A DNA stretch of 64,000 nucleotides from Felixounavirus NRG857CP1. The notes below the pieces were generated by a model. That model was not told where the DNA came from. It made no database searches and saw nothing but the letters and a program-made list of their open reading frames with translations. This document shows, in pieces, positions 5,785-50,010 of this stretch. Within the stretch, counting starts at the first letter, position 1, and each line of letters starts with the position of its first letter. Both the position numbers and the translations under genes were made by a program. Where the stretch lies: sequence record OZ035796.1. One strand, written 5' to 3'.

Positions 5785-6084
5785 TTAATCTGCCAACCTT
5801 AAATTAAAATTAACACCAAATTTTTCACATACTTCCAACATATACTCAAGGGAAACATTCCCAGTGAGGTGGATTATGTTGGATACACGAGCCTGAGAGA
5901 TACCACAAATTTTAGCAACTTGCTCTTGAGAAAGACCTCTGGATTTAATCTCTCTCTTAAAACGATGTGCAACGAAGTCTCTCATTTCGTCTACATCCAT
6001 TGGACAAATATAACTCTCCATTTCAGCCTCTCTATCAGCCTCCCAATCATCTTGTGGGGCATAAGGGTCAAAAACCTCATTCAT
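5785..6084 (-). CDS. helix-turn-helix (XRE/Cro-like) DNA-binding protein
   Basis: HTH-like segment LSQEQVAKICGISQARVSNIIHL; start moved to the internal ATG at 6082-6084 preceded by GGAAGAAGAAAGA. Confidence 0.5.
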   Translation of the reverse strand: MNEVFDPYAPQDDWEADREAEMESYICPMDVDEMRDFVAHRFKREIKSRGLSQEQVAKICGISQARVSNIIHLTGNVSLEYMLEVCEKFGVNFNLRLAD

Positions 6085-6289
6085 CTTTCTTCTTCCGTTT
6101 GCGTGAAGTGTCAATCAATGAATCTATGTTTGTAGCTCTAACCTTTTCACGTTCATCGTTAAGATAATCATCAAGAGCCTTTTCAATCTGTGAATCATCT
6201 TGACAGATAACTGTAAAGACTGTAAATCCGTCTTTATCGTCAATTATCTTACCATAACCGCTTCTGGGATGTAACTTTTTAAGAGCCAT
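6077..6289 (-). CDS. hypothetical protein
   Basis: 70-aa ORF; 8-nt overlap with the downstream gene. Confidence 0.4.
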   Translation of the reverse strand: MALKKLHPRSGYGKIIDDKDGFTVFTVICQDDSQIEKALDDYLNDEREKVRATNIDSLIDTSRKRKKKDE

Positions 6290-43354: not shown

Positions 43355-43422
43355 GAAACTCTGTAGGATATCCACAATAGCCTAAGCCTTTCTTATCTGG
43401 TAAATTTTTCAGGTAAGGAGGG

Positions 43423-43610
43423 CTTTTTCATTTCAGATTTGTGCAGGTAGATTTCTCTACAGAACTCTATAGAGAAAATTTTGAACTCCAAAGAGAAAAT
43501 TCATTTTCAAACTGTGCAGGTAATCTCCAAAGAGCTTTTTCATTTTCAAAACGTGCAGACCCCGCTCAGGTCGGGCAAGAAAAATCATTTTAGAATTGTG
43601 CAGGTAGGTT
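43423..43610. repeat. four direct repeats (~28 nt, core TCATTTTCA-A-TGTGCAGGTA)
   Basis: Copies near 43428, 43501, 43550 and 43586 with irregular spacing (73, 49, 36 nt); non-coding. Confidence 0.6.
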
Positions 43611-43626
43611 TTTATAGACAGCCAGC

Positions 43627-43661
43627 CCAACCCCTCTCCCCCTCTTACTCCCCCTCTCCCC
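43627..43661. repeat. C/T-rich homopyrimidine tract
   Basis: CCCAACCCCTCTCCCCCTCTTACTCCCCCTCTCCCC; exceptional in this AT-rich sequence. Confidence 0.6.
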
Positions 43662-43782
43662 AAAAGTCAAGAGAAAAATTTGTAGCGGATTGAAAAATAA
43701 TTCTTGATTTGCGTTCTGTTTTGTGGTAGTCGTGCGCACCCGTTTCATTACAGTTTTGCCAAAAATATTTTTAAAATTTTTA

Positions 43783-43811
43783 TTGACTCTTTGAACGTGG
43801 TTATCTAATAT
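43783..43811 (+). promoter_or_regulatory. sigma70-like promoter of the small-gene array
   Basis: TTGACT - 17 nt - TAATAT, followed by the conserved GGGGAGGG-AATGACC-(T)TCCCC leader hairpin and AGGAGA Shine-Dalgarno. Confidence 0.55.
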
Positions 43812-43874
43812 TTACATCAACGGGGAGGGAATGACCTTTCCCACTAAATAAAATCCTAAACTGGAGATTCAAAA

Positions 43875-44063
43875 ATGGCATCAAGAAAAATTAAAGTTGG
43901 CGATGAGGTTAACATTAAGCACGAATACTCTTACAAAATGCTAACTATACGCTCTTATAAGGTTTATCAGGTGGAAGCTATCCACAAAGATAATACTTTT
44001 TCCTTAAAAGGGTATAGCGAACGTTTCCCTGCTGAACTCTTTGAGAAATGGAGCGCGAAATAA
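43875..44063 (+). CDS. small hypothetical protein (array gene 1)
   Basis: 62 aa; conserved leader TAAACTGGAGATTCAAAAATG. Confidence 0.5.
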   Translation: MASRKIKVGDEVNIKHEYSYKMLTIRSYKVYQVEAIHKDNTFSLKGYSERFPAELFEKWSAK

Positions 44064-44740: not shown

Positions 44741-44835
44741 TAAAGTACTTTACAAGGGGCTTAAAAGTTGGTATCTTAAGCCCCAGATAAAGAGCTTTAC
44801 CACTAAATCAAGTCCTTAAACTAGGAGATTCAAAA

Positions 44836-45348
44836 ATGAAAACTGTAGACGCTACCTTTGAAGTTGTAAAAGAAAAATTTTCCATCATTTACGAAGCTGT
44901 TAATTGCTACGAAGCAAGCCATAACCTTGATAATTGGGAATTTACAGATGACCATCAAGGCGGTGTGACTGTTAAAAATCCTAACTATCAGCATAATGCA
45001 TTTAAATATGCAATCCCTTTGCATTACAGCCTTAAACAGCTTTCTAGTGACTATGCAAAACAAGGCCGGGAAAATCCATCAAAAGAGGCTTACGCAAGCT
45101 TACAGAAAGAACTAGAAAGAGATTTAGAGGCTTCAGAGTACAACCTTGCCGCGAAAGTTGTGGATGCAAACGGTAACACGGTTTTAGAAAGTTTTTATCT
45201 TGGTTATGCTTTCGATTGGTGCTATCGTGACGGCGATGATTTAGAGGATAGACTAAAAGAAGAGGTGAACAATTCAGACGCAGAATCTGAAGTATTAGAA
45301 CGTTTGGAATCACTAAAAGATTCAGTGATGAATATCTTTAAGAACTAA
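44836..45348 (+). CDS. hypothetical acidic protein (array gene 4)
   Basis: 170 aa; same conserved leader. Confidence 0.5.
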   Translation: MKTVDATFEVVKEKFSIIYEAVNCYEASHNLDNWEFTDDHQGGVTVKNPNYQHNAFKYAIPLHYSLKQLSSDYAKQGRENPSKEAYASLQKELERDLEASEYNLAAKVVDANGNTVLESFYLGYAFDWCYRDGDDLEDRLKEEVNNSDAESEVLERLESLKDSVMNIFKN

Positions 45349-46063: not shown

Positions 46064-46088
46064 TTTTAGTTTTAAAAACAAGTAAATT
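46060..46088 (+). promoter_or_regulatory. sigma70-like promoter candidate
   Basis: TTGATT - 17 nt - TAAATT followed by the GGGGAGGG-AATGA-CCTTCCCC leader hairpin. Confidence 0.5.
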
Positions 46089-46152
46089 ACTAATCAACGG
46101 GGAGGGAATGACCTTCCCCACTAAGTAAAATCCTTAAACTAGGAGAGTCAAA

Positions 46153-46683
46153 ATGAACAAGTTTAAAGCTATCAACTTCATTCGTTCAAATGCTGTAATG
46201 TCTAAGCCTGTAAAAGATACATATGAATTTCGTTGTAATGGGGTACACTTTGCAACCATCACTAAGTCAGAAAACGGGGCTTATTATGTACATCGTCGTA
46301 ATGTTGCAACCGTTGTAGTCTCTCACTTTATGCAAGCTGTAGCGGAATTATTACCGTTATTCTTAGAGATTTACTTAGATGAGTGTAAAAACGTTCACAA
46401 CCACGTTAAAAACCTTTTAAACGGTTATAAAATGGCTTATGAACGTTCTATCAAGTCACTAAACAAGTTTTACAATGCACCTGCAAATACTGTTTCAATG
46501 GCTTATGATGTAAACGGTGAGTTAGTTAGTCTCTTTAAAGTGGAAGAAATTAAACTGTATAATCTACGTCCTAGTGGTTACTCTAAGACTCTTGGTGAAG
46601 GTTTAACGTTCAATATCAAGAACTTAGAAAAAACTTTAAAAGATATTGAAAAAGATATTGACGAGACACTTAAAAGTCTGTAA
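46153..46683 (+). CDS. hypothetical protein (array gene 7)
   Basis: 176 aa; leader AGGAGAGTCAAAATG. Confidence 0.5.
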   Translation: MNKFKAINFIRSNAVMSKPVKDTYEFRCNGVHFATITKSENGAYYVHRRNVATVVVSHFMQAVAELLPLFLEIYLDECKNVHNHVKNLLNGYKMAYERSIKSLNKFYNAPANTVSMAYDVNGELVSLFKVEEIKLYNLRPSGYSKTLGEGLTFNIKNLEKTLKDIEKDIDETLKSL

Positions 46684-46686
46684 ATT
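46658..46686 (+). promoter_or_regulatory. sigma70-like promoter candidate
   Basis: TTGACG - 17 nt - TAAATT then the conserved leader hairpin; -10 overlaps the upstream stop codon. Confidence 0.5.
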
Positions 46687-46751
46687 GTCAATCAACGGGG
46701 AGGGAATGACCTTCCCCACTAAATAAAACCCTTAAACTAGGAGATTCAAAA

Positions 46752-47000
46752 ATGGCAACTATCCGCGCTACTGTTAACGAGTTCGGTTTTTCTTCTCTGG
46801 ATGTTAAATTTGACATTGCAGGCACTGATAACGCCTTTGAAATGGTGAAATGTCTTATCAGTCAGACCATCAAAGATTATAATCCTTCGGATGAGTTCTG
46901 GGAGGAAACAAAACAAGAAGTTCTCAAGGATGGTTATACTTATCACTATTGGGGAGAAAAAATCGTCTCCCTGTACTACAACAAACAAGATTATAACTAA
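46752..47000 (+). CDS. small hypothetical protein (array gene 8)
   Basis: 82 aa; conserved leader. Confidence 0.5.
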   Translation: MATIRATVNEFGFSSLDVKFDIAGTDNAFEMVKCLISQTIKDYNPSDEFWEETKQEVLKDGYTYHYWGEKIVSLYYNKQDYN

Positions 47001-47038
47001 TCGACGCAGCGGGGCTATTTAGCCCCAGATACCTGAAC

Positions 47039-47062
47039 AGCCCCTTAAAATGGGGCTTTTTT
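47039..47062 (+). terminator. rho-independent terminator
   Basis: AGCCCC-ttaaaat-GGGGCT followed by TTTTTT; an additional GGGGCT-attt-AGCCCC hairpin lies just upstream. Confidence 0.65.
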
Positions 47063-48706
47063 ACGTCTATGTAATAGCCTCTATTCAATCCTTTTCCTTT
47101 CCTTTCCAGAATCTATCCCACTGATTCAATAGAATCTTATCAGACCTTAAAAGCAATAACTCTATAGTCTACTCTATAACCTCTTATCAAATCAACTTAA
47201 ATAAAAGCCAATAACCCCAGAAAGGGGATGGCCCATTTAAACGCTCTATAAAGCTCTATAACAGCCTTATCAACCTAACTTAAGGGATTGCATTAACTCA
47301 CCCTTAAAAACCCTTTATAAAGCTTCTCAGAGCCTTAAAAGAATCTTATAAGGGTGTAAGCTTTATCATCTCATTAGTATTCTTGTGAATAACTAAACAA
47401 CCCCTTGATAGTCACTAAAAAGTATGTTATAGGGGGCTTTAAAGTTACTTTGAAGTAGCTTAAAAGTTACGTAAAAGAGGTTATAAAGTTACGTAAATGC
47501 TAGCCCCCTTAACATTTTCTTAACAATTTCTTAACAACCCCCTACATAGTTATGCTTGTTAGAGACTTGTTAGCCCCTTGTTAAATCTCTGTTAAGACCA
47601 CGTAAAAGCCTTGTAAGAACCTTTGACATAGCCTTAAAAGCTCCTGTAAAGCCCTATAAAGAGCTATCCATACAGTTGAGGGGTAGATACTAGGAAGAGA
47701 TTTAAAAGAGCTTACAAGGAGCTATAGAGAGCTTTTAAAGGGTATGTTTAGAGAATCACTAAGAAAGAGAGGGAACGATAAGAAAAGAGTAGTGACCATG
47801 TTAATAGCTTGTTAAAAAGATTAAACACTTGTTAAAAACTTGTTAATTATCTTAACAAAATAACTCTTAAAAATTAACTTGTTAGCTCTTGTTAGTCATC
47901 TGTTAAGATTCTGTAAAGCCCATGTATCAACTGTTAAGAAACTGTTAAGCCCTTGTTAGCTCTGTTAAGAATCTGTTAAGACCTTTGAAGAGTTGTTAAG
48001 AAGATGTTAGAACTGTTGAGAGATTGTTAATGATATTTTAAAATTTTGCAAAGTACTTGTAAGGGAGCTGTTAAGGGCTACCAAGCAGATATACATCTTC
48101 TACAGATATTTTTGAGTTCCTTCAAAGACCCTAAAAAAATGACTTGATATTCCTATTTTATAAAAATTTTAAAATTCTGAATAATTACCTATACAGTCTT
48201 TTAAAAATACAGGCATAAACAGGCTTATAAGATACCTTGTTAGTACCGTGTTAGACCTTGTGAGATAAGGTCTGTAAAGATATTCCTGTTAAGTTTGTTA
48301 AAACAGTCTATATAGAGGCTTAGTAATACCTAGTGAACACCTATAGAGGGTAACATAGCTGACATAATGGGTTACTGTTAAGTAACACAGATAACCTAGA
48401 GATTAAGAGGTGTATAGGGGGCTTCTAAGAGGGTATAGAGAGATGGTTAAGGTGATTGTATAGGCTGTTAAGAAGGCTTGTTAGAAGAGTGTTTAGAAGG
48501 GCTATACAGAGGGGCTATTAAGACCACTAGATAGTTACTAAGATACTATATAGTACTATATAACTATATATAGAGAGTAAGCTTAAGAAGGTTGTTAAGA
48601 AGGGTAGATATTTTATTCACATATGATGGTGACCCAGAGGTTGGGACAACCGATGAAATTTTATAAAAATTAAAAAGCCCCCAATTAAGGAGGCTCTTAA
48701 GATATT
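47063..48706. repeat. ORF-free ~1.6-kb island dense in short iterated motifs
   Basis: No ORF of 60 aa or more on either strand; dozens of (C)TTGTTAG / CTGTTAAG / GTTAAGA and CCTTAAAAG / CTATAAAGAGCT copies; lies between convergent transcription units. Confidence 0.7.
48675..48700 (-). terminator. rho-independent terminator candidate (minus strand)
   Basis: On the minus strand AGCCTCC-ttaatt-GGGGGCT followed by TTTTT, just downstream of the last minus-strand gene. Confidence 0.5.
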
Positions 48707-49255
48707 TTAAATCAGTGTTTCCAGAACTGTCTTCAGTGATGACTTGGTTGTCTGATAAAAATGAGTAAATCCATTGTTGTTATCGAATACCTGCATCATG
48801 ATATCATCTCCCTTGATTGGGTACACTCGGATATCATAGTGGAATCCATTAAAGATAGCAGAGCCATTACAGAATGAACTAAAGTCATCAACTGAGATGT
48901 ACTCTTCGTGACCTGTGATTTTTATACAGACACCTTTACTCGGTCTCTTAGGGTTGATATCTTCCATGATAGACATGCTCTGTCCACCAAGAGATACCAT
49001 AGTGACCACTTTACGGTTCTTCTGTTTAAAGTACATCTTAACTTTCTGTAAAGTGTCTTCATAGAACGGATAAGACCTTTCTACAAAGATTCCTTCAAGT
49101 GGCTCTTTACCATTTTCAACTTCTCTGTTATGCCGTACTGCAAAGATAATTTGTTGGAACCAGTCAAGATTTTCTTCGGAGAGTGCTTCCCGAATATCAT
49201 TCCAGTCAAGGACTAGGTAGTTGCCTTCAACATCTTTTAAGTTATCTTTTTCCAT
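48707..49255 (-). CDS. hypothetical protein
   Basis: ORF 48707-49312; start tentatively moved to an internal ATG to remove the 44-nt overlap. Confidence 0.45.
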   Translation of the reverse strand: MEKDNLKDVEGNYLVLDWNDIREALSEENLDWFQQIIFAVRHNREVENGKEPLEGIFVERSYPFYEDTLQKVKMYFKQKNRKVVTMVSLGGQSMSIMEDINPKRPSKGVCIKITGHEEYISVDDFSSFCNGSAIFNGFHYDIRVYPIKGDDIMMQVFDNNNGFTHFYQTTKSSLKTVLETLI

Positions 49256-49733: not shown

Positions 49734-49785
49734 TTCGCTACCTTCTAAGTTTCTACAAAGGGGCTATCAAGTAACCCCTAAGTTA

Positions 49786-50010
49786 TTACTCAGACTTTTC
49801 AGTCTTCTTATCGGATTTCTTACTAGTCTTCTTCTCAGCTTTCTGTTCAGGCTCCTTCTCAGAAGTTGCCTTAATAACCATATCAAGAAGCTCTGATAAG
49901 TCACTCTTCAGCAAAGTAACAGGCTGCTCGTTGTAGAAGTTTTTGTCAAGATAAACTTTGAACTCTTCTATAGAAGGAAATCCAAAAATTGGTACAGGTG
50001 TCTTAATCAT
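49786..50010 (-). CDS. small protein with Lys-rich C-terminus
   Basis: 74-aa ORF. Confidence 0.45.
   Translation of the reverse strand: MIKTPVPIFGFPSIEEFKVYLDKNFYNEQPVTLLKSDLSELLDMVIKATSEKEPEQKAEKKTSKKSDKKTEKSE

What the first reader, a model, noticed from the sequence alone, without database searches (positions are those of the whole stretch)
47063..48706. 1.6-kb ORF-free island saturated with TGTTAAG-type short repeats
No ORF of 60 aa or more on either strand across about 1.6 kb, in a genome that otherwise packs genes with overlaps. The region lies between two convergent transcription units and carries dozens of CTTGTTAG, CTGTTAAG and GTTAAGA copies plus CCTTAAAAG, CTATAAAGAGCT and TATAG clusters. 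Candidate roles are an iteron-type replication origin, a packaging or terminal-repeat boundary, a DNA-binding protein array, or a source of non-coding RNAs.
Basis: seen in the sequence. Interest (0 to 1): 0.7.

Follow-up and report, generated by a model that had tools for sequence, protein, structure and literature searches.

The report
Phage genome ends with phased repeats
The gene-free island is where the linear chromosome of a Felix O1-like phage begins and ends (a roughly 580-bp terminal repeat plus its flanks), which is already known for this group, but it is built from about 59 copies of an 8-bp word, CTNNNNAG, that is also twice as common as expected throughout the genome, which appears not to have been described.

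Summary
Window 47063-48706 has no ORF longer than 33 aa, lies between two convergent terminators, and is strongly enriched in short repeats.

The window is a Felixounavirus. Three relatives whose records carry exact terminal repeats (581, 694 and 570 bp) share the same boundary words, GCTA|GCCCCCTTAACA and GGGCTACC|AAGCAGATATAC. Both words are intact and unique in the window. I therefore place the short direct terminal repeat (DTR) at 47503-48082. Published Bal31 and run-off sequencing (UAB_Phi87, 608 bp) and PhageTerm results (581 and 613 bp) agree. The origin and ncRNA options have no support.

New here:
- The repeats reduce to one word, CT-N4-AG: 59 copies against 11.6 expected, spaced about 10.5-11 bp.
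- Copy number stays at 55-65 in three genera despite turnover of individual copies.
- The same word is about 2.2-fold over-represented across the rest of the genome. Inside genes there are 403 copies against 207±11.5 after synonymous-codon shuffling.
- The excess is absent from lambda, T4, T7, rV5 and E. coli.

I infer phased binding sites for an unidentified lineage-specific DNA-binding factor. No binder was identified.

The parts
47039..47057 (+). Intrinsic terminator closing the rightward unit of small genes. A second hairpin lies just upstream at about 47007-47025.
   Evidence: stem-loop plus T run; sequence.
47063..47502 (.). Unique non-coding DNA next to the right-hand repeat copy in the virion (right-end subterminal array). 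It holds 16 CTNNNNAG boxes in 47001-47502, none of the TGT/GTT class (8 TAAAG/TTAAG-class, such as CTTAAAAG, CTATAAAG and CTTATAAG; 8 unclassified). It is the most variable part of the island.
   Evidence: box map; identity 0.76 within the genus.
47503..48082 (.). Short exact direct terminal repeat (DTR), present once in this collapsed assembly. In the virion it would be at both ends. It holds 25 boxes, 17 of them of the TGT/GTT type.
   Evidence: Pr103Blw's 581-bp annotated repeat maps to 47503-48082. NBSal004 (694 bp) and the Mooglevirus HP1 (570 bp) have identical boundaries. The boundary words were found in 12 of 12 genomes. Literature: PMC4837284, PMC8303462, PMC6454146.
47499..47514 (.). 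Left boundary word GCTA|GCCCCCTTAACA. The predicted left terminus lies between 47502 and 47503.
   Evidence: GCCCCCTTAAC is unique in the 64-kb window.
47508..47537 (-). Three boxes in reverse orientation (CTTAACA three times, exactly 11 bp apart) at the extreme left of the repeat. Almost all other TGTTA cores point the other way.
   Evidence: period 11, 94% matches; TTAACA at 47509, 47520, 47531. The homologous start is seen in Erwinia phage Prophecy.
47553..48030 (+). Forward arrays of CTTGTTAG, CTGTTAAG and CTGTAAAG boxes at 10-12 bp spacing. The densest run is 47876-48030.
48031..48095 (.). Conserved right boundary block ...TTTTGCAAAG...GTTAAGGGCTACC|AAGCAGATATACA. The predicted right terminus lies between 48082 and 48083. 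It is recognisable even in Erwinia phages.
   Evidence: (phiEa104 and Prophecy hits). GGGCTACC and AAGCAGATATAC are unique in the window.
48083..48706 (.). Unique non-coding DNA next to the left-hand repeat copy (left-end subterminal region). It holds 18 boxes, an AT-rich stretch at about 48140-48185 and TATAG clusters. It is highly conserved.
   Evidence: Identity is 0.91 within the genus and 0.73 to Moogle/Susp viruses, higher than for the flanking genes.
48673..48698 (-). Intrinsic terminator closing the leftward gene unit that ends at 48707.

Best explanation
The island is the concatemer junction of a Felix O1-like (Ounavirinae) phage, that is, the DNA at and around the physical ends of the linear chromosome.

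The ends. Bases 47503-48082 are the short exact direct terminal repeat. 47063-47502 is the subterminal DNA of the right end and 48083-48706 is that of the left end. By analogy with T7-type phages (inferred), replication gives head-to-tail concatemers with one repeat copy per junction. The terminase then cuts at the two conserved boundary words and the repeat is duplicated, so each packaged genome starts and ends with it.

The boxes. The island is built from about 59 copies of an 8-bp word with symmetric ends, CTNNNNAG, placed about one helical turn apart. I infer that these are phased binding sites for a lineage-specific, probably dimeric, DNA-binding factor. Such a factor would assemble a nucleoprotein platform on one face of the DNA at the chromosome ends. 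The platform could mark the junction for the packaging machinery, organise or protect the ends, or both. The same factor would bind more sparsely along the whole genome, where the word is about 2-fold over-represented.

Shown: the position of the ends (by homology and literature), the word, its phasing, its maintenance across genera, and its genome-wide excess.
Inferred: that a protein reads the word, and that the reading serves packaging or end organisation.

My probabilities:
- Island contains the DTR and the ends: about 0.93.
- Boxes are protein-binding sites: about 0.55.
- Their main role is packaging recognition: about 0.35.
For: Identity of the window. It is a Felixounavirus: 253 phage records match, the best at 98%.

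Position of the ends.
- The exact terminal repeats in Pr103Blw, NBSal004 and HP1 share the same boundaries, and both boundary words are intact in the window.
- At least four further records start at the same base.
- The boundary words are present in all 12 genomes checked, in three genera.
- The predicted UAB_Phi87 repeat is 614 bp, against 608 bp measured by Bal31 and run-off sequencing (PMC4837284).
- PhageTerm gave 581 bp (PMC8303462) and 613 bp (PMC6454146).
- Repeat length varies in steps of about 10.5-11 bp: 569/570, 580/581, 590/591, 601, 613/614.

The word in the island.
- CT-N4-AG is the top gapped word in the island (z=16.6) and in 14 relatives, which carry 55-65 copies each.
- It is also enriched in an Erwinia phage (26 against 7.8).
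- Boxes turn over but their number is kept. 54-63% are shared in register with Moogle/Susp viruses against 33-42% expected, and 18-30 private boxes replace the lost ones.
- The island is more conserved between genera than its flanking genes.

The word across the genome.
- The ratio to other spacings is 2.18.
- Inside genes there are 403 copies against 174±12 after codon permutation and 207±11.5 after synonymous shuffling (z=17).
- Boxes outside the island pair at 11-12 bp and 21-24 bp.
- The excess is absent from lambda, T4, T7, rV5 and E. coli.
- An IMG/VR scan for four phased boxes returned Ounavirinae islands plus unrelated simple tandem repeats only.
Against: - The window holds only one copy of the repeat, so terminal redundancy of this particular phage is inferred, not seen.
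- No binding protein was identified. The flanking proteins have no recognisable domain, and TerL and any small terminase lie outside the window.
- Position by position, CT and AG are only slightly better conserved than spacer bases.
- The two repeat ends are not more alike in inverted orientation than other island segments (94th percentile), so a symmetric cutting signal is not demonstrated.
- In T7, most insertions near the ends were tolerated (bioRxiv 10.1101/2024.10.10.617714), so analogous arrays may be individually dispensable.
- Because the word is self-complementary in outline, selection at the RNA level cannot be excluded for the copies inside genes.
Confidence: 0.62

Rival explanations
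1. The boxes are functionless by-products. Slippage and unequal exchange in gene-free DNA at the junction generate and erode 11-bp units. Only the boundary words and the repeat as such matter.
For: Repeat length differs between isolates by whole units of about 10.5-11 bp. Individual boxes turn over. CT and AG are only marginally more conserved than spacers. T7 end-proximal insertions are mostly tolerated (10.1101/2024.10.10.617714).
Against: - Copy number stays at 55-65 in three genera at about 77% identity, where neutral decay predicts roughly half that number.
- The island is more conserved than the neighbouring genes.
- The same word is driven up two-fold inside genes by synonymous codon choice, which slippage in the island cannot explain.
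Confidence: 0.13
2. The boxes act through DNA mechanics alone, without a sequence-reading protein. Phased CT/AG steps would give curvature or anisotropic flexibility that helps spooling, end anchoring or junction recognition.
For: Spacing is helical, at about 10.5 bp. AA/TT and CT/AG recur at period 11. Pairs at one and two turns occur genome-wide.
Against: A wedge-model estimate shows no excess static curvature. The island gives 24.6 degrees per 42 bp, the rest of the window 23.6, and shuffles 25.8±1.7. The model parameters were recalled from memory, so this is a weak test. Flexibility was not modelled.
Confidence: 0.1
3. Iteron-type replication origin. The boxes would bind an initiator and the AT-rich stretch near 48140-48185 would melt.
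For: There are many phased direct repeats next to an AT-rich segment. Some linear phages start replication at their ends (phi29; established knowledge).
Against: - No initiator-like gene is adjacent.
- The boxes are 8 bp long and about 59 in number, unlike iterons, which are few and about 17-22 bp long.
- DnaA-box matches occur only with one mismatch, one per strand.
- The island lies at the cumulative GC-skew maximum, and the minimum is near 13 kb. This is confounded by gene orientation.
- The genome-wide spread of the word is not expected of iterons.
Confidence: 0.07
4. The island encodes one or more non-coding RNAs.
For: The right flank is highly conserved. It folds somewhat better than shuffles (z=-2.8 on the + strand and -2.3 on the - strand).
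Against: There is no Rfam match at E of 1 or less apart from two sub-threshold chance hits. Promoter-like sites number 10 against 7.3±2.8 expected. The folding signal is equal on both strands, as DNA inverted repeats would give. The repeat itself gives z=-1.0.
Confidence: 0.05

Closest known systems
Concatemer junction of phage T7: 160-bp terminal repeat with flanking arrays of short CCTAAAG repeats (Dunn and Studier's SRL/SRR, named from memory; the sequence was tested here)
   Same: Both have a short exact terminal repeat embedded in gene-poor DNA. Both have short AAG-ending boxes, in and beside the repeat, in phased arrays. In T7 the repeat was measured as 160 bp, with 17 (C/A)TAAAG boxes at about 13-bp spacing in the 658-bp junction. 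Both have fixed, non-permuted ends.
   Different: - The word differs: CT-N2-AG (CCTAAAG) in T7, CT-N4-AG here.
- The period differs: 13 bp against 10.5-11 bp.
- The scale differs: 17 boxes in 0.66 kb against 59 in 1.7 kb, and a 160-bp repeat against 580 bp.
- T7's word is not over-represented in the body of its genome (ACCTAAAG: 2 in the body against 13 at the ends), and T7 shows no CT-N4-AG excess.
- T7's early genes are read inward from the end, whereas here both flanking units are read towards the ends.
phi29 protein p6 nucleoprotein complex (established knowledge; not tested here)
   Same: A phage-encoded protein that covers the whole genome with a regular helical repeat and has preferred nucleation regions near both chromosome ends. 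This is the pattern the box distribution suggests.
   Different: p6 reads bendability with a 24-bp period, not a defined word. phi29 has protein-primed ends and no terminal repeat of this kind. No p6-like gene was identified here.
Centromere-like arrays bound by ribbon-helix-helix proteins, for example plasmid R1 parC with ten 11-bp iterons bound by ParR (established knowledge; not tested)
   Same: Many short boxes one helical turn apart, read cooperatively by dimers on one face of the DNA.
   Different: Those arrays hold about 10 boxes of a single sequence, lie next to their binding-protein gene and are not spread through the replicon. No ParR/ParM-like genes are seen next to the island.
Genome-wide over-represented recognition words, such as the DNA uptake sequences of Neisseria and Haemophilus, or Chi and KOPS in E. 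coli (established knowledge)
   Same: A short word kept far above expectation throughout coding DNA by selection at the DNA level.
   Different: Those words are 8-12 fully specified bases. Chi and KOPS are oriented and bacterial. Here only 4 of 8 bases are fixed, the outline is symmetric, the word belongs to a phage lineage and it peaks at the chromosome ends.

Membership tests
Short exact direct-terminal-repeat (T7-type, non-permuted) phage chromosome ends | The same sequence is present at both ends of the virion DNA. | not testable with these tools
   The window holds one collapsed copy. In relatives, the two record ends are identical over 581, 694 and 570 bp.
Short exact direct-terminal-repeat (T7-type, non-permuted) phage chromosome ends | Ends are fixed and sequence-defined (not permuted), and are the same in independent isolates. 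| tested here: met
   Boundaries are identical in three records from different laboratories and genera. Further records start at the same base. The boundary words are conserved in 12 of 12 genomes and are unique in the window.
Short exact direct-terminal-repeat (T7-type, non-permuted) phage chromosome ends | Ends have been demonstrated physically on virion DNA. | not testable with these tools
   Done for the congener UAB_Phi87 by Bal31 and run-off sequencing, giving 608 bp (PMC4837284). My homology-based prediction for that phage is 614 bp. PhageTerm gave 581 and 613 bp in two others (PMC8303462, PMC6454146).
Short exact direct-terminal-repeat (T7-type, non-permuted) phage chromosome ends | The large terminase groups with terminases of phages that make terminal repeats. 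| not tested
   TerL lies just beyond the window end, about 17 kb from the left terminus in phage D4. PMC4837284 reports a Felix O1-like DTR cluster of terminases.
Iteron-type replication origin | An initiator (Rep) gene lies next to the iterons. | tested here: not met
   Six flanking proteins have no Pfam domain above threshold, and PHROG families of unknown function only.
Iteron-type replication origin | A few directly repeated iterons of about 17-22 bp, plus DnaA boxes and an AT-rich unwinding element. | tested here: inconclusive
   The boxes are 8 bp long and about 59 in number. DnaA-box matches occur only with one mismatch, once per strand. An AT-rich stretch exists near 48140-48185.
Structured non-coding RNA locus | A match to a known RNA family, or a promoter and terminator bounding a strand-specific structure. 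| tested here: not met
   No Rfam match. Promoter-like sites are at chance level. Folding z-scores are similar on both strands. Covariation was not tested.
T7-like terminal short-repeat arrays (SRL/SRR) | Arrays of the T7 heptamer CCTAAAG beside the terminal repeat. | tested here: not met
   The word here is CT-N4-AG at a period of 10.5-11 bp. T7 has CT-N2-AG at a period of 13 bp, and only 3 CT-N4-AG in its junction. The layout is alike but the word is different.

The most novel reading that the evidence does not exclude
Ounavirinae phages use CTNNNNAG as a genome-wide 'own DNA' word read by an undiscovered lineage-specific DNA-binding protein. The word is kept at about 9 per kb in the genome body by synonymous codon choice, often as pairs one helical turn apart. 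It reaches about 35 per kb at the chromosome ends, where the protein would nucleate a platform that directs packaging or end organisation. That would be a phage counterpart of uptake-sequence or p6-type genome marking, in one of the oldest known Salmonella phages.
Probability: 0.4. Interest if true: 0.8.

Novelty: new variant of a known kind. Interest (0 to 1): 0.58.

Why it matters
Placing the ends matters in practice. Most Felixounavirus records, and this assembly, are opened arbitrarily with the repeat collapsed. The two conserved boundary words allow the true termini of any member to be called from sequence alone.

The CTNNNNAG result matters more. It shows strong DNA-level selection reshaping codon choice across a whole phage genome, and a 14-fold concentration of the word (relative to E. 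coli) at the ends. This points to an unknown DNA-recognition component in phages that are widely used for Salmonella typing, biocontrol and therapy. It also gives a concrete bait sequence for finding that component.

For phage engineering, it warns that recoding or shrinking these genomes may remove functional sites. It may also shed light on the long-unexplained short-repeat arrays at T7-type ends.

Tried and rejected
- Rfam search at E of 1 or less: two sub-threshold chance hits only.
- Promoter scan: 10 sites against 7.3±2.8 expected. Apart from the two flanking terminators and an overlapping alternative call of the right-hand one, one weak terminator-like site on the - strand at 47229-47214.
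- DnaA and IHF consensus searches: chance level.
- Pfam and PHROG searches of six flanking proteins: no informative domain.
- Static curvature by a wedge model: not elevated (parameters from memory).
- Terminal inverted repeat at the two repeat ends: only the 94th percentile against other island segments, and not conserved in the Erwinia phage. Dropped as a claim.
- Per-position conservation of CT and AG: only marginally above spacers. The argument rests instead on copy-number maintenance.
- RNA folding: a weak signal, symmetric between strands.
- The PhageMaP paper on the Felixounavirus Bas63: no data for this island in the text, and no supplements are held.
- The Felix O1 genome paper: lists other repeats but does not mention this island.
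- Literature search for CTNNNNAG: only unrelated primer sequences.
- The XRE-type helix-turn-helix protein at 5785-6114 (-) was considered as a binder. Nothing links it to an 8-bp box.
- A density gradient of the word away from the ends: none, the excess is roughly uniform.

Full report
**1.

Between 47088 and 48707 there is no ORF of 40 aa or more on either strand. The longest ORF inside the island is 33 aa. The island lies between a + strand gene ending at 47000 and a - strand gene ending at 48707. Each gene is followed by an intrinsic terminator, at 47039-47057 (+) and 48698-48673 (-).

CTTGTTAG occurs 7 times against 0.03 expected from the other 62 kb. CTGTTAAG occurs 10 times against 0.16, and TGTTA 29 times against 2.5. 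'Dozens' is true only for the words taken together. Tandem Repeats Finder and the repeat finder show many short arrays of period 10-11, 22, 31 and 62 bp.

**2. What the window is**

The island matches 253 phage records, nearly all Felix O1-like myoviruses (Felixounavirus). The best match is 98% identical. The island corresponds to the gap between genes 23 and 24 of Felix O1 (NC_005282, 12306-13931). The Felix O1 genome paper lists other repeats but does not discuss this gap. It concludes only that the phage 'possesses short terminal repeats' (PMC3185647).

**3. The island contains the chromosome ends**

Several related records begin or end inside the island. Phage vB_EcoM-Pr103Blw annotates a 581-bp 'short direct terminal repeat' at both record ends. 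Its two copies are identical, and the repeat aligns to window 47503-48082.

Two more records, from other laboratories, carry exact end repeats with the same boundaries: NBSal004 (694 bp) and the Mooglevirus vB_CbrM_HP1 (570 bp). The boundaries read ...GCTA|GCCCCCTTAACA... on the left and ...GGGCTACC|AAGCAGATATAC... on the right. Both words are intact in the window and occur nowhere else in its 64 kb. They are present in all 12 genomes examined, from Felixounavirus, Mooglevirus and Suspvirus. An Erwinia phage record (Prophecy) starts at the homologous left boundary and keeps a recognisable right boundary block.

The published evidence agrees:
- UAB_Phi87 has a 608-bp repeat by Bal31 digestion and run-off sequencing (PMC4837284). 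My prediction from the boundary words is 614 bp.
- Pr103Blw has 581 bp by PhageTerm (PMC8303462).
- Ro111lw has 613 bp (PMC6454146).

I therefore place the terminal repeat of this phage at 47503-48082 (580 bp). The window shows a single copy because the assembly is collapsed and opened elsewhere. This step rests on homology. It cannot be verified on this phage without reads.

**4. Anatomy**

- Left of the repeat, 47063-47502 is the unique DNA next to the right-hand end. It is the most variable part (identity 0.76 within the genus).
- The repeat starts with three boxes in reverse orientation (CTTAACA, exactly 11 bp apart, 47508-47537). It then carries forward arrays of CTTGTTAG, CTGTTAAG and CTGTAAAG. 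28 TGTTA(A/G) cores point forward and 4 point backward in the island.
- Right of the repeat, 48083-48706 is the subterminal DNA of the left end. It is very well conserved (0.91 within the genus).
- Between genera, the repeat (0.78) and the right flank (0.73) are better conserved than the neighbouring protein-coding genes (0.20-0.66).
- Repeat length differs among genomes in steps of about one unit: 569/570, 580/581, 590/591, 601, 613/614.

**5. One word underlies the repeats**

I scanned all gapped dinucleotide pairs (gaps of 0-9) against dinucleotide-preserving shuffles. CT-N4-AG came out first, with 57 observed against 11.4 expected (z=16.6). CT-N3-AG and CT-N5-AG are not enriched.

Successive boxes are mostly 10-12 bp apart, and the periodogram peaks at 10.5 bp. 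The same word is the top signal in each of 13 further islands from three genera, with 55-65 copies each. It is also enriched in the Erwinia phage (26 against 7.8).

Individual boxes turn over. Only 54-63% of the window's boxes are in register with boxes in Moogle/Susp viruses. That still exceeds the 33-42% expected from overall divergence, and 18-30 private boxes keep the total constant. Position by position, CT and AG are only slightly better conserved than spacers. So the constraint appears to act on the number and phasing of boxes rather than on each copy.

**6. The word is over-represented genome-wide (unexpected)**

- Outside the island the window has 570 CTNNNNAG (9.2 per kb), against 215-332 for every other spacing from N1 to N12. 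This is the strongest spacing-specific pair among all 256 × 12 combinations (z=8.3).
- The excess is seen in all three codon frames and is 3-4-fold in non-coding DNA.
- In 61 ORFs of 100 aa or more there are 403 copies. Codon permutation gives 174±12 (z=18.5). Shuffling only synonymous codons, with the protein sequence kept, gives 207±11.5 (z=17). N1, N7 and N10, which share the codon phase, give z=1.4, 4.1 and 1.0.
- The excess is roughly uniform along the genome.
- Boxes outside the island tend to sit 11-12 bp apart (46 pairs against about 10 expected) and 21-24 bp apart.
- The excess is reproduced in phage D4 (ratio 2.20), Felix O1 (2.72), phiSUSP1 (2.08) and Erwinia phage Prophecy (1.89).
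- It is absent from lambda (0.96), T4 (0.86), T7 (below 1), rV5 (1.03) and 50 kb of E. coli K-12 (0.95; 2.5 per kb).
- A scan of 2.9 million viral contigs for four phased boxes returned 46 loci. 25 are Ounavirinae islands. The other 21 are simple tandem repeats of unrelated sequence.
- I found no paper describing this word.

**7. How it most likely works**

Established knowledge of T7-type phages says that short exact terminal repeats arise when the terminase processes head-to-tail concatemers at fixed sites and the repeat is duplicated. The two invariant boundary words are the natural candidates for those sites (inference).

For the boxes I considered four facts together: the helical phasing, the symmetric outline, the pairing at one and two turns, and the maintenance of copy number both in non-coding DNA and against codon constraints. 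These are best explained by cooperative binding of a lineage-specific, probably dimeric, protein on one face of the DNA. Binding would be densest at the chromosome ends (inference, about 0.55).

Whether such a platform recruits the packaging machinery, protects or anchors the ends, or organises the whole genome cannot be decided here. No small terminase has been recognised in these phages (PMC4837284), and TerL lies just outside the window.

**8. Rivals**

- Pure slippage debris does not explain the maintained copy number, the high conservation or the excess inside genes.
- DNA mechanics alone is not supported by a wedge-model estimate. That test is weak because the parameters came from memory.
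- An iteron origin lacks an initiator gene and typical iterons, and the island lies at the skew maximum.
- An ncRNA locus lacks Rfam matches, promoters and strand-specific folding.

**9. Comparison with known systems**

The closest layout is the T7 concatemer junction, which I tested directly. It has a 160-bp repeat and 17 (C/A)TAAAG boxes at about 13-bp spacing in and beside the repeat. The word, period and scale differ, and T7's word is not enriched in its genome body. In T7, most end-proximal insertions are tolerated, except near the inner edge of the left repeat (10.1101/2024.10.10.617714).

Functionally, the genome-wide spread with nucleation at the ends recalls phi29 p6. The phased boxes recall ParR/parC-type arrays. 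Both of those comparisons rest on established knowledge and were not tested here.

**10. Verdict**

The island itself is ordinary once recognised: it holds the ends of a terminal-repeat phage, a feature already published for this genus. Its fine structure, and the genome-wide CTNNNNAG excess, are to my knowledge undescribed and point to an unidentified DNA-recognition component.

Novelty: new variant of a known kind. Interest: 0.58.

Noticed in passing
whole window outside 47001-48706; also L025 (phiSUSP1), L024 (Prophecy), L028 (D4): CTNNNNAG is about 2-fold over-represented throughout the genome, including inside genes through synonymous codon choice (403 against 207±11.5). Copies often sit as pairs 11-12 bp apart. 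The excess is absent from lambda, T4, T7, rV5 and E. coli.
   Followed up: yes
window 49742-49910: A local run of CTNNNNAG boxes outside the island. Three are at 11-bp steps in the gap between two - strand ORFs (49742, 49753, 49764). Four more are at 12-bp steps inside the 74-aa ORF 49786-50010 (49819-49855). This 500-bp bin has 14 boxes against a mean of 4.6.
   Followed up: partly
window 43816-43879, 46081-46155, 46645-46756 (also 44800-44840): A repeated intergenic cassette precedes several small + strand genes. It consists of a hairpin (GGGGAGGGAATGACCTTCCCC), then ACTAAATAAAA, a ribosome-binding site and ATG. It probably corresponds to the 39- and 57-bp direct repeats reported for Felix O1 genes 15-21.
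   Followed up: no
window 43355-43875: An ORF-poor stretch of about 500 bp with three to four copies of a roughly 35-bp unit (...TTTTCA...GTGCAGGTA...) and a C-rich tract (CCCAACCCCTCTCCCCCTCTTACTCCCCCTCTCCCC, about 43625-43655). It may be a regulatory region upstream of the small-gene cluster.
   Followed up: no
relatives: L001, L002, L005, L007, L013-L018, L021: The length of the terminal repeat differs between isolates in quantised steps of about 10.5-11 bp (569/570, 580/581, 590/591, 601, 613/614, and 694 in NBSal004). That is, whole boxes are gained or lost.
   Followed up: partly
L013 (phiSUSP1 island) against L025 (phiSUSP1 1-50 kb): The Suspvirus island has 35% G+C, like the Felixounavirus islands, although the first 50 kb of that genome has 41% (47% is reported for another Suspvirus). 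Island composition seems to be held constant across genera.
   Followed up: no
window 5785-6114 (-): A small XRE/Cro-type helix-turn-helix protein (...LSQEQVAKICGISQARVSNII...), annotated 'transcriptional regulator' in relatives. It is one of the few recognisable DNA-binding proteins in the window. Nothing links it to the boxes.
   Followed up: no
GU169904.1 (hit H18): A record named Staphylococcus phage SA1 (147 kb) contains the Felixounavirus island at 90% identity. This looks like a chimeric or contaminated database record.
   Followed up: no
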